Source: the human T2T-CHM13v2.0 reference genome, Homo sapiens
Direction: 5' to 3' (one strand)
Assembly (NCBI RefSeq): GCF_009914755.1
Contig: NC_060936.1
DNA: 64,000 nucleotides
The position numbers were made by a program, and so were the translations under genes. Below, in pieces: positions 42,321 through 45,657 of this stretch; within the stretch, counting starts at the first letter, position 1, and each line of letters opens with the position of its first letter. The notes under the pieces were generated by a model. It was not told the DNA's origin, ran no database searches, and was given only the letters and a program-made list of their open reading frames with translations.

Positions 42321-42887
42321 TATGATTAATCCAATAAACTTAGATTTTTAAAATAGTTTTATTAGTGGACAAAAGACTAGTGGACAATCTACTGTGTACA
42401 AAATGACATCTGACTTCATATGAAGGTGTTTCTGTGGTATAAAAATATTGACAGTAAAACAGACTCACAATATGTTGGCTTCTATTTTGACCTTTGCCAT
42501 TTTGCCATTCTATTATTTCACTTTCATGAATTATAGTTATTTTTGCTCTCTTTTTTGTTTTGGTATGAGTGGTCAGAACCTGTTCTAGTTTGTTCTGTTG
42601 CTGTCATTGTCTTAACTTCCATTCTGAGCAGGTAGGACCACAAAATTAGACTGGGGCATGACCTTCGGACTGCCTTCCTGATGAGATGAGGGGTTGGGGA
42701 AGAACCGAAAGAGCATGGACCATGTGTTAAAACAAGACAACTTGCTCAGAAGTTAACAAATAGGAAAACATTTGTTTCAACTGCAGATTCCAGTCTAAAG
42801 GAGCTAGAAGGTAGCAATGTAAGTACCAGGCTTGGGGTGGTAGGGAGGAGGGAGAAGGAGGCTGGTAAGTTTTTATGAAAACCTCCA

Positions 42888-45068
42888 ATCTCAAAATAAT
42901 AAGAGCTATCTATGACAAACCCACAGCCAATATCATACTGAATGGGCAAAAACTGGAAGCATTCCCTTTGAAAACTGTCACAAGACAGGGATGCCCTCTC
43001 TCACCACTCCTTTTCAAAATAGTGTTGGAAGTTCTGGCCAGGGCAAATAGGCAGGAGAAGGAAATAAAGGGTATTCAATTAGGAAAAGAGGAAGTCAAAT
43101 TGTCCCTGTTTGCAGATGACATGAATTGTATATCTAGAAAACCCCATTGTCTCAGCCCAAAATCTCCTTAAGCTGATAAGCAACTTCAGCAAATTCTCAG
43201 GATACAAAATCAATGTACAAAAATCACAAGCATTCTTATACACCAATAACAGACAAACAGAGAGCCAAATCATGAGTGAACTCCCATTCACAATTGCTTC
43301 AAAGAGAATAAAATACCTAGGAATCCAACTTACAAGGGATGTGAAGGACCTCTTCAAGGAGAACTACAAACCACTGCTCAAGGAAATAAAAGAGGATACA
43401 AACAAATGGAAGAACATTCCATGCTCATGGGTAGGAAGAATCAATATCGTGAAAATGGCCATACTGCCCAAGGTAATTTACAGATTCAATGCCATCCCCA
43501 TCAAGCTACCAATGCCTTTCTTCACAGAATTGGAAAAAACTACTTTAAAGTTCATATAGAACCAAAAAAGAGCCCGCATCGCCAAGTCAATCCTGAGCCA
43601 AAAGAACAAAGCTGGAGGCATCATGCTACTTGACTTCAAACTATACTACAAAGCTACAGTAACCAAAACTGCATGGTACTGGTACCAAAACAGAGATATA
43701 GATCAATGGAACAGAACAGAGCCCTCAGAAATAACGCCGCATATCTACAACTATCTGATCTTTGACAAACCTGAGAAAAACAAGCAATGGGGAAAGGATT
43801 CCCTATTTAATAAATGGTGCTGGGAAAACTGGCTAGCCATATGTAGAAAGCTGAAACTGGATCCCTTCCTTACACCTTATACAAAAATCAATTCAAGATG
43901 GATTAAAGACTTAAACGTTAGACCTAAAACCATAAAAACCCTAGAAGAAAACCCAGGCATTACCATTCAGGACATAGGCATGGGCAAGGACTTCATGCCT
44001 AAAACACCAAAAGCAATGGCAACAAAAGCCAAAATTGACAAATAGGATCTAATTAAACTAAAGAGCTTCTGCACAGCAAAAGAAACTACCATCAGAGTGA
44101 ACAGGCAACCTACAAAATGGGAGAAAATTTTCACAGCCTACTCATCTGACAAAGGGCTAATATCCAGAATCTACAATGAACTCAAACAAATTTACAAGAA
44201 AAAAACAAACAACCCCATCAAAAAGTGGGCAAAGGACATGAACAGACACTTCTCAAAAGAAGACATTTATGCAGCCAAAAAACACATGAAAAAATGCTCA
44301 CCATCACTGGCCATCAGAGCAATGCAAATCAAAACCACAATGAGATACCATCTCACACCAGTTAGAATGGCAATCATTAAAAAGTCCGGAAACAACAGTT
44401 GCTGGAGAGGATGTGGAGAAATAGGAATACTTTTACACTGTTGGTGGGACTGTAAACTAGTTCAACCACTGTGGAAGTCAGTGTGGCAATTCCTTAGGGA
44501 TCTAGGGCTAGAAATACCATTTGACCCAGCCAACCCATTACTGGGTATATACCCAAAGGACTATAAATCATGCTGCTATAAAGACACATGCACACATATG
44601 TTTATTGCGGCATTATTCACAATAACAAAGACTTGGAACCAACCCAAATGTCCAACAATGATAGACTGGATTAAGAAAATGTGGCACACATACACCATGG
44701 AATACTATGCAGCCATAAAAAATGATGAGTTCATGTCCTTTGTAGGGACATGGATGAAATTGGAAATCATCATTCTCAGTAAACTATTGCAAGAACAAAA
44801 AACCAAACACCGCATATTCTCACTCATAGGTGGGAATTGAACAATGAGAACACATGCACACAGGAAGGGGAACATCACACTCTGTGGACTGTTGTGGGAT
44901 GGGGGGAGGGGGGAGGGATAGCATTGGGAGATATACCTAATGCTAGATGACGAGTTAGTGGGTGCAGCGTACCAGCATGGCACATGTATACATATGTAAC
45001 TAACCTGCACATTGTGCACATGTACCCTAAAACTTAAAGTATAATAATAAATAAAAATTAGAAAAAAA
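42888..45068 (+). mobile_element. L1PA2-like LINE-1, 5'-truncated (ORF2 RT/C-terminus plus 3' UTR), inactivated
   Basis: ORF2 pieces ([35 protein letters not shown]) split by a frameshift and stops; 3' UTR gctagatgacGAGttagtggg (not ACA/ACG); A-rich tail 45041-45068. Confidence 0.95.
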
Positions 45069-45176
45069 GAGAATTGCTTGAACCCAGTAGGTGGAGGTTG
45101 CAGTGAGCCAAGATTGTGCCATTGCACTCCAGCCTGGACAACTAGAGCGAAACTCTGTCTCAAAAAAAAAAAAAAA
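45069..45176 (+). mobile_element. AluSq/Sp-like right-arm fragment only
   Basis: Starts mid-element at gagaattgcttgaaccc; ccattgcactcc and gagcgaaactc diagnostics; A15 tail. Confidence 0.9.
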
Positions 45177-45504
45177 GAGAAAGAGATATTGGAAATAACT
45201 TTCAGATAGCTAATGCAGTTATTTGGCAGTATCTAAAAATAAGTACAAGAAGGGTTTATTACATCTCCTTCCTCTTCCTTTATATCCATTTATTGGCTGT
45301 GTGACCTTAGGAAAGTTACTTAATTTCTGTCCTTCATATTGCTGGATTTTTTAAAATGATTTTTAAAGAACAAGATATGTCATCATAACCCTATGTTAAG
45401 AATTAATATGTTTATGTTTATATTTTGTTTTCAAATGTGAAATATAAAACATAACATAAATATCCCAAGATTATGAATAAATCTCAGTCTTTTTCCAAAA
45501 AAAA
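45069..45504 (+). other. L1 3'-transduced segment with its own AATAAA (45476-45481) and poly(A) (45497-45504)
   Basis: Enclosed together with the L1 by perfect 12-bp TSD GAAAACCTCCAA (42877-42888 and 45505-45516). Confidence 0.85.
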
Positions 45505-45657
45505 GAAAACCTCCAAACTAAGTTTATATCTAATGTTTCCATCCCTTGATATAGTAAAATAAGATGGTAGGCTAATGGCACAGAATGAAGTAGTGCTAAT
45601 TTATTCACATGGGTGTATCTCTGCAGGGTCAAATAGAAAGCTAATAAATTAAACACG

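What the first reader, a model, noticed from the sequence alone, without database searches (positions are those of the whole stretch)
42877..45516. L1PA2 insertion carrying a ~430-bp 3' transduction from another locus
Seen in the sequence: GAAAACCTCCAA sits immediately 5' of the truncated L1 (42877-42888), at an endonuclease-like AT/GAAAA site. It is absent after the L1 tail (45041-45068) and recurs exactly at 45505-45516. That second copy is directly preceded by A8 (45497-45504), which begins 15 nt after an AATAAA (45476-45481). Established knowledge: L1 transcripts can read through their weak poly(A) signal, use a downstream signal and mobilise 3' flanking DNA, giving TSD-L1-A tail-flank-AATAAA-poly(A)-TSD. 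Inference: 45069-45496 is a copy of the 3' flank of a source L1 elsewhere in the genome, so it barcodes the parent element. A standard repeat annotation would not flag it.
Basis: partly seen in the sequence, partly recalled or inferred. Interest (0 to 1): 0.85.

Follow-up and report, generated by a model that had tools for sequence, protein, structure and literature searches.

The report
L1 insert carrying chr13-derived 3' extension
A dead, truncated L1 retrotransposon on chromosome 12 dragged along about 430 bases copied from a spot upstream of FREM2 on chromosome 13, an ordinary kind of event, except that no parent L1 sits at that spot today.

Summary
GAAAACCTCCAA occurs exactly twice in the window, at 42877-42888 and 45505-45516. 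It brackets a 5'-truncated L1 (42889-45068), an Alu 3' fragment (45069-45176), 320 bp of unique DNA, AATAAA (45476-45481) and A8.

The extra DNA is a copy from elsewhere. In T2T-CHM13 the 320 bp has one other full-length match, chr13:37,892,433-37,892,752 on the minus strand (97%). Homology runs from window 45067 to 45503, that is from the L1 tail to the A-run before the second repeat copy. L1 private divergence (about 1.4%) equals half the chr12/chr13 divergence (2.8%), so both parts arrived together.

No L1 lies next to the chr13 copy, or within about 55 kb upstream or 24 kb downstream. The junction falls inside an uninterrupted Alu about 11 kb upstream of FREM2 exon 1, on the opposite strand.

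My best reading (0.62) is a classic 3' transduction from a progenitor L1 allele in that Alu that was never fixed. The main rival (0.22) is a reverse-transcriptase template switch from a polyadenylated chr13 RNA onto L1 RNA. Ape and pangenome alleles, which I could not reach here, would decide. This is an ordinary kind of event with a modest twist.

The parts
42877..42888 (+). 5' copy of the target-site duplication, GAAAACCTCCAA. The target reads ..TTTTTAT/GAAAAC.., matching 4 of 6 positions of the L1 endonuclease motif TT/AAAA.
   Evidence: motif as quoted in PMC13174262
42889..45051 (+). 5'-truncated L1 body: C-terminal part of ORF2, with frameshifts and stops, plus the 3' UTR, ending in its own AATAAA (45046-45051).
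   Evidence: RVT_1 hit on the first 93 aa, E 1.7e-11. Broken frame. 96.6-97.2% identity to the 10 nearest copies spanning at least 42891-45055.
45052..45068 (+). Interrupted A-rich L1 tail (TAAAAATTAG then A7). The last two A's (45067-45068) overlap the start of the chr13 homology.
45069..45176 (+). 3' end of an Alu right arm plus A15, copied from the chr13 locus together with its flank. It differs at 5 of 93 positions.
45177..45496 (+). Unique DNA copied from chr13:37,892,433-37,892,752 (minus strand), differing at 9 of 320 positions.
45476..45481 (+). AATAAA poly(A) signal, conserved at chr13 and the first canonical signal after the L1 tail. The homology ends 15-22 nt after it.
45497..45504 (+). 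A8 terminal tail. chr13 reads CCCAAAAAA here, so only 1-2 A's are necessarily untemplated.
45505..45516 (+). 3' copy of the target-site duplication, GAAAACCTCCAA.

Best explanation
One target-primed reverse transcription event, roughly 8-15 million years ago, inserted a composite cDNA into an intron of what is now LINC01479. The composite is 2.18 kb of L1 3' end with its own A-rich tail, followed by about 430 nt from chr13 (Alu 3' fragment plus unique flank) that ends at a downstream AATAAA and a short A-tail. The whole unit is flanked by a 12-bp target-site duplication. That much is shown.

The inferred mechanism is classic L1 3' transduction. A full-length L1 once sat inside the Alu about 11 kb upstream of FREM2 on chr13, in the same orientation as the copied segment. 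Its transcript read through the weak L1 poly(A) signal and was cleaved at the first canonical AATAAA downstream. That progenitor allele was polymorphic and was lost by drift, so the reference keeps only the empty chr13 site.
For: The composite is one unit:
- The repeat is exact and improbable by chance.
- The chr13 homology (window 45067-45503) fills exactly the space between the L1 tail and the second repeat copy.
- The chr12 5' flank is single-copy.

The two parts are the same age:
- 29 truly private differences over about 2133 L1 positions give about 1.4%.
- The unique segment differs from chr13 at 9 of 320 positions, 2.8% pairwise or 1.4% per lineage.

A Pol II 3' end is indicated:
- AATAAA is conserved at chr13, and the homology ends 15-22 nt after it, at CCCA.
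- No earlier AATAAA or ATTAAA occurs in 45069-45475.

Prior knowledge favours transduction with a missing donor:
- 3' transduction is common; about 25% of insertions carry one according to the abstract of PMC13009371 (search listing).
- Donor L1s absent from the reference are documented (PMC6425141, passages).
- A lost ancestral L1 allele is the explanation offered for an analogous 5' case (PMC13174262, passages).
Against: - The defining proof, an L1 next to the parent segment, is absent. None lies within about 55 kb upstream or 24 kb downstream at chr13, and the Alu there is continuous across the junction (10 of 11 window Alus align across it).
- The hypothetical chr13 insertion site (..GAGGC/AAGAGA..) matches at best 3 of 6 positions of TT/AAAA.
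- No sibling was found. The tail signature has no other L1 copy of this age; the single 1-mismatch hit is a short, more diverged L1 fragment on chr6 at 94%. The L1/Alu junction is unique at up to 3 mismatches. A 56-mer spanning five private sites is unique at up to 2 mismatches.
- The internal pure A-run is only 7 nt and the terminal tail only 8 nt, of which 6 could be templated.
Confidence: 0.62

Rival explanations
1. Template-switch chimera. L1 ORF2p began target-primed reverse transcription on a polyadenylated cellular RNA transcribed from the minus strand upstream of FREM2, possibly a divergent or antisense lncRNA ending at this AATAAA. It copied about 430 nt, then jumped inside the Alu portion onto the poly(A) tail of an L1 mRNA and copied 2.18 kb of it. 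No L1 was ever present at chr13.
For: - This explains directly why chr13 has no L1 and an intact Alu.
- The junction has a 2-nt AA overlap.
- The L1 partner has a complete 3' end with a pure A7 after a plausible cleavage point 10 nt past its own AATAAA.
- The parent segment lies about 11 kb from the FREM2 CpG-rich 5' end on the opposite strand. It is preceded about 420 nt upstream by a polypyrimidine-AG motif and ends in AATAAA plus CA. That is compatible with a terminal exon.
- A lncRNA named FREM2-AS1 exists (search listing only).
- Two-transcript insertions arise experimentally: nine among clones with 99 L1 and 235 pseudogene insertions (PMC11702581, section 7 and passages).
Against: - No evidence here that the chr13 strand is transcribed; I could not obtain the coordinates of FREM2-AS1.
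- It needs two uncommon steps, trans use of a cellular RNA followed by a switch to L1 RNA.
- Described chimeras mostly have L1 as the 3' partner and a full-length 5' partner (PMC2104539, part 1 of the text). Here L1 is the 5' partner and is truncated.
- No other retrocopy of the chr13 segment exists: 1 other full-length match among 23 scored.
Confidence: 0.22
2. An RNA-level fusion formed before reverse transcription. Either a read-through transcript of a distant L1 was spliced (donor just after the tail, acceptor at ..GGCAAG|AGAATT.. in the Alu), or L1 RNA was trans-spliced or ligated to a chr13 RNA fragment.
For: - An AG dinucleotide lies exactly at the chr13 junction, and the chr12 junction reads ..AAAG|AGAATT...
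- Splicing and RNA ligation are discussed for other L1 chimeras (PMC13174262, passages).
Against: - Only 8 of the 22 bases before the AG are pyrimidines, and it is an AAG acceptor in a sense-oriented Alu.
- No L1 in the genome carries the same tail signature, beyond the short chr6 fragment at 1 mismatch.
- No same-family L1 lies within 55 kb upstream.
Confidence: 0.05
3. Coincidence or two events. The 12-mer match is chance and the chr13-like DNA reached chr12 independently of the L1, by a separate retrocopy, duplication or gene conversion.
For: The terminal A-run is short and mostly templated.
Against: - Both ends of the chr13 homology coincide, to within 2 nt, with the L1 tail and the second repeat copy.
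- The two parts have equal ages.
- The chance rate for such a 12-mer recurrence is 10 of 60,796 positions.
- There is no separate duplication around the L1 alone or the segment alone. The A-rich repeat around the Alu fragment is explained by the chr13 sequence itself.
Confidence: 0.03

Closest known systems
L1 3' transduction (read-through of the L1 poly(A) signal; described for human L1 around 1999-2000, recalled; surveyed in PMC9311842, passages)
   Same: The order is target-site duplication, L1, A-rich tail, foreign flank, AATAAA, A-tail, target-site duplication. The foreign flank maps to one other locus on another chromosome. The poly(A) signal lies within the 10-40 nt window upstream of the end, as reported for donors in PMC9311842.
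   Different: The mapped parent locus has no L1 in T2T-CHM13. The junction lies inside an intact Alu at a poor endonuclease site. No sibling shares the transduction.
Template-switch chimeric retrocopies such as U6/L1, Alu/L1 and mRNA/L1 (PMC2104539, part 1 of the text; PMC13174262, outline, section 12 and passages)
   Same: Two RNA-derived parts are joined head to tail in one orientation inside one target-site duplication at an endonuclease-like site, with a short overlap at the joint.
   Different: In the described classes L1 is the 3' (first-copied) partner and the 5' partner is usually full-length. Here L1 is the 5' partner and truncated, and the 3' partner is a unique polyadenylated sequence. 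The 2026 census looked only 5' of L1.
MAP3K13/L1PA5 and other 5' mRNA/L1 chimeras without an L1 in the parent gene (PMC13174262, passages)
   Same: The ambiguity is the same. The parent locus lacks the L1, and the authors weigh a lost ancestral L1 allele against recombination of two RNAs.
   Different: Those cases have the foreign sequence at the 5' end, with splice-site signatures. Here it is at the 3' end with a poly(A)-site signature.

Membership tests
L1 3' transduction | L1 3' end with its own poly(A) signal and A-rich tail, followed directly by non-L1 DNA | tested here: met
   AATAAA at 45046-45051 and tail to 45068, then Alu fragment and unique DNA
L1 3' transduction | The extra DNA ends in a second poly(A) signal and an A-tail | tested here: met
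   AATAAA at 45476-45481 and A8 at 45497-45504. However, 6 of the 8 A's could be templated by chr13.
L1 3' transduction | A target-site duplication flanks the whole composite at an endonuclease-like site | tested here: met
   12-bp exact repeat. The target AT/GAAA matches 4 of 6 positions of TT/AAAA.
L1 3' transduction | The extra DNA originates from a single other locus | tested here: met
   1 other full-length match among 23 scored, chr13, 97%. Collinear over window 45067-45503.
L1 3' transduction | At the origin, the segment lies directly 3' of an L1 in the same orientation | tested here: not met
   Intact Alu across the junction and no related L1 in chr13:37,868,000-37,947,999 of T2T-CHM13. 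Other haplotypes and apes were not testable.
L1 3' transduction | Outgroups show an empty chr12 site lacking the whole unit | not testable with these tools
   No primate genomes are held (banner: the genome has no relatives here).
Template-switch chimeric retrocopy (features listed in PMC2104539) | The 5' part is a full-length copy of a cellular RNA | tested here: not met
   The L1 part is only the last 2.18 kb. Its 3' end is complete.
Template-switch chimeric retrocopy (features listed in PMC2104539) | The 3' part is a 5'-truncated copy of a polyadenylated RNA | tested here: inconclusive
   The segment ends at AATAAA plus an A-run, but the existence of a chr13 transcript was not shown.
Template-switch chimeric retrocopy (features listed in PMC2104539) | Both parts are joined directly in one orientation and flanked by short direct repeats | tested here: met
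   Direct join with a 2-nt overlap, both poly(A) signals on the + strand, 12-bp repeat
L1PA2 subfamily | Subfamily-diagnostic positions | tested here: inconclusive
   No subfamily library is available. GAG at the 3' UTR trinucleotide, as in 9 of 12 relatives; its meaning as 'older than L1HS' is recalled. About 1.4% private divergence. 5 of 36 differences from the nearest copies are ancestral states, within the 1-6 range of those copies.

The most novel reading that the evidence does not exclude
This is a 'reverse-order' L1 chimera. ORF2p started on a polyadenylated FREM2-upstream antisense transcript and then switched onto L1 RNA. The product is indistinguishable from a 3' transduction unless the parent locus is inspected. 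If so, an unknown share of catalogued old transductions whose parent loci lack an L1 may be template-switch chimeras, a class that the 5'-side censuses do not look for.
Probability: 0.2. Interest if true: 0.5.

Novelty: new member of a known kind. Interest (0 to 1): 0.3.

Why it matters
It adds one more fixed L1 insertion with a 3' extension, in an intron of a lncRNA and with no evident functional effect. It has two modest points of value. First, the extension pins the parent locus to an Alu about 11 kb upstream of FREM2, where no L1 survives, so it may be a trace of an active progenitor that was never fixed. Second, it shows concretely that 'transduction' calls made from anatomy alone cannot exclude template switching from a cellular RNA. 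That can be tested genome-wide by asking whether L1-less parent loci are enriched for true transcript 3' ends.

Tried and rejected
- **Alu fragment as a later, separate insertion.** It seemed to have its own A-rich duplication (45054-45073 vs 45162-45181, 85%). Rejected because chr13 has the same Alu and flank adjacency.
- **Pol III read-through of the Alu as the source RNA.** Rejected because the 320 nt contains several runs of four or more T, which stop Pol III (established knowledge), and the end has a Pol II AATAAA signature.
- **ADAR editing signature in the Alu part.** Only 1 of 14 chr12/chr13 differences is G in chr12 against A in chr13, so there is none.
- **Sibling or parent tracing.**
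  - The tail signature search (up to 1 mismatch) found only a short, more diverged L1 on chr6, 94% identical over 264 bp.
  - Tails of the 19 relatives in which the 3' end was found are heterogeneous, and 'ATTA' interruptions recur, so the TTAG interruption is not a usable barcode.
  - The junction 33-mer is unique at up to 3 mismatches.
  - The 56-mer with five private sites is unique at up to 2 mismatches.
  - The 36-mer at 43611-43646 turned out to carry ancestral states. It has 46 exact matches including itself and 2473 matches at up to 1 mismatch. The six copies fetched are 85-94% identical.
- **Papers not obtained.** The 2003 TSD/transduction survey and the 2003 chimeric-retrogene survey were not held under the ids I recalled, so their lists could not be checked for this locus. 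Supplementary tables of PMC13174262 were not opened.
- **Literature searches.** surfaced no paper on this locus. Searching by locus is not possible.
- **Format errors.** Searches failed on term format and were re-sent in corrected form.

Full report
**1. The observation**

- GAAAACCTCCAA sits at 42877-42888 and again at 45505-45516. These are the only exact copies on either strand of the window; a third site matches with one mismatch.
- An L1 3' portion runs from 42889 to an interrupted A-rich tail ending at 45068.
- AATAAA is at 45476-45481, and A8 at 45497-45504 abuts the second 12-mer.
- As an empirical baseline, only 10 of 60,796 positions in this window have their 12-mer recur exactly 2192-3192 nt downstream.
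- The L1 identity is supported. The first 93 codons hit RVT_1 (E 1.7e-11), the ORF2 frame is broken by frameshifts and stops, and the 10 nearest copies that span at least 42891-45055 are 96.6-97.2% identical over about 2.17 kb.

I add three details.
- 45069-45176 is the 3' end of an Alu right arm plus A15, not unique DNA.
- The last A of the 5' repeat copy could equally be the first L1 base.
- The target..TTTTTAT/GAAAAC.., matches 4 of 6 positions of the TT/AAAA endonuclease motif, as quoted in PMC13174262.

**2. Where the extra DNA comes from**

I searched the window's own assembly (T2T-CHM13) with 45177-45496. It gave 23 scored matches, of which only two are full length: the window itself and chr13:37,892,433-37,892,752 on the minus strand, at 97%. 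The other 21 are 35-71-nt fragments.

BLAST of window 42000-46500 against the chr13 locus shows one collinear block, window 45067-45503 against chr13:37,892,874-37,892,426. So the Alu fragment and the unique DNA are adjacent at chr13 too. The homology starts within the last two A's of the L1 tail and ends in the A-run directly before the second repeat copy. The chr12 5' flank is single-copy.

The direction of copying is chr13 to chr12. At chr13 the Alu continues upstream and the downstream flank is unrelated, with no repeat. At chr12 the segment is bounded by the L1 tail and by A8 plus the repeat.

**3. Same age**

The unique segment differs from chr13 at 9 of 320 positions and the Alu part at 5 of 93. 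That is about 2.8-3.4% pairwise, or about 1.4-1.7% per lineage.

The L1 differs from the majority state of its 11 nearest copies at 36 positions. Five of these are ancestral states shared with at least 4 of 7 older copies, and 29 are shared with none or one of them. That makes about 1.4% of roughly 2133 comparable positions. The agreement argues that the L1 and the segment arrived together.

In absolute terms this is very roughly 8-15 million years, depending on the rate assumed (my inference). The subfamily name could not be tested. The GAG trinucleotide in the 3' UTR and the divergence are compatible with L1PA2 or a neighbouring subfamily; the meaning of that trinucleotide is recalled.

**4. 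The prediction that fails**

It does not.
- At chr13 the sequence upstream of the homology is the rest of the same Alu right arm, then unique DNA.
- 10 of 11 Alus in the window align across the junction point, so the chr13 Alu is uninterrupted there.
- Across chr13:37,868,000-37,947,999 (80 kb, no N), the only similarity to the window's L1 is two old fragments, 89 bp at 79% and 125 bp at 81%. No related L1 therefore lies within about 55 kb upstream, in the sense of the copied strand, or about 24 kb downstream.

**5. Context of the parent locus**

An 1821-codon open frame at chr13:37,903,823-37,909,286 on the + strand carries Frem_N and Cadherin_3 repeats. That is FREM2 exon 1, within a CpG-rich stretch.

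The parent segment lies about 11 kb upstream of it on the opposite strand, which is the orientation of a divergent transcript. About 420 nt 5' of the Alu there is a polypyrimidine-AG motif. The segment ends AATAAA, 15 nt, then CA. This is compatible with a terminal exon, but it is motif-level evidence only. A lncRNA named FREM2-AS1 exists (search listing), but I could not obtain its coordinates.

**6. Mechanism**

What is shown is one target-primed reverse-transcription event. Reverse transcription began at the 3' end of an RNA carrying the chr13 sequence, beside the endonuclease-like nick, and continued into L1 sequence. How the two became one template is inferred.

*(a) Read-through from a progenitor L1 once inserted in the chr13 Alu and later lost.*
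- For: transduction is common, and donors absent from a reference genome are documented (PMC6425141, passages).
- For: the AATAAA used is the first canonical signal downstream.
- For: the same 'lost ancestral allele' argument is made for 5' chimeras (PMC13174262, passages).
- Against: the hypothetical chr13 target, ..GAGGC/AAGAGA.., matches at best 3 of 6 motif positions.
- Against: no sibling was found.

*(b) Template switch from a polyadenylated chr13 RNA onto the poly(A) tail of an L1 mRNA.*
- For: it accounts at once for the intact Alu, the 2-nt AA overlap and the short pure A7.
- For: two-transcript insertions are seen experimentally, nine among clones with 99 L1 and 235 pseudogene insertions (PMC11702581, section 7).
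- Against: it needs a transcript that I could not show and two uncommon steps.
- Against: its architecture, with L1 as a truncated 5' partner, departs from the listed features of known chimeras (PMC2104539).

*(c) Splicing or ligation.* The support is weak, because the AG at the junction has a poor pyrimidine tract.

*(d) Coincidence.* This is excluded for practical purposes by the boundary coincidences and the equal ages.

My odds are 0.62, 0.22, 0.05 and 0.03 respectively.

**7. Comparison and verdict**

The element works like an L1 3' transduction and meets four of its anatomical criteria. The one criterion that proves read-through, an L1 at the origin, was tested and is not met in this assembly. 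I therefore file it as transduction-like, with a lost progenitor as the most likely explanation, and not as a proven transduction.

It is an ordinary kind of event. The modest twist is the L1-less parent locus upstream of FREM2, and the fact that a template-switch origin cannot be excluded from anatomy alone.

The insert lies in sense orientation in intron 2 of LINC01479 (hub annotation) and has no evident functional consequence.

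Noticed in passing
L010:5824-9999 and onward (chr13:37,903,823-37,909,286, + strand): An 1821-codon open frame with Frem_N and eight Cadherin_3 stretches, which is FREM2 exon 1, inside a CpG-rich 4 kb. It fixes the parent segment about 11 kb upstream of FREM2 in divergent orientation.
   Followed up: partly
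L009:5320-5301, minus strand (chr13 about 37,893,300): A long polypyrimidine run ending in AG lies about 420 nt 5' of the Alu. Together with the AATAAA at the segment's end it could delimit a terminal exon of about 870 nt belonging to a FREM2-divergent lncRNA. This is a motif only and was not checked against annotation.
   Followed up: no
L018:1495-1752 (chr6:62,281,481-62,281,508 for the tail match): A short 5'-truncated L1 of about 260 bp, 94% identical to the window copy, has a tail that differs by one base from the window's interrupted tail. It is probably convergence of A-rich tails, not a sibling.
   Followed up: partly
window 43611-43646: This 36-mer of the L1 has 46 exact matches in the genome, including itself, and 2473 matches at up to 1 mismatch. 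It carries states that the 11 nearest copies lack but older L1 copies share. The window's L1 therefore keeps a few ancestral states (5 of 36 differences), as some of its nearest relatives also do.
   Followed up: yes
window 45054-45073 and 45162-45181: An A-rich direct repeat (85%) brackets the Alu fragment and mimics a target-site duplication. The chr13 sequence shows it is a by-product of A-runs followed by GAGAA in both the Alu and its flank.
   Followed up: yes
window 42877-45516 within 21957-59401: The insert lies in sense orientation in intron 2 of LINC01479 and adds two sense-strand AATAAA signals (45046-45051 and 45476-45481). Whether they cause premature 3' ends of the lncRNA was not examined.
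   Followed up: no
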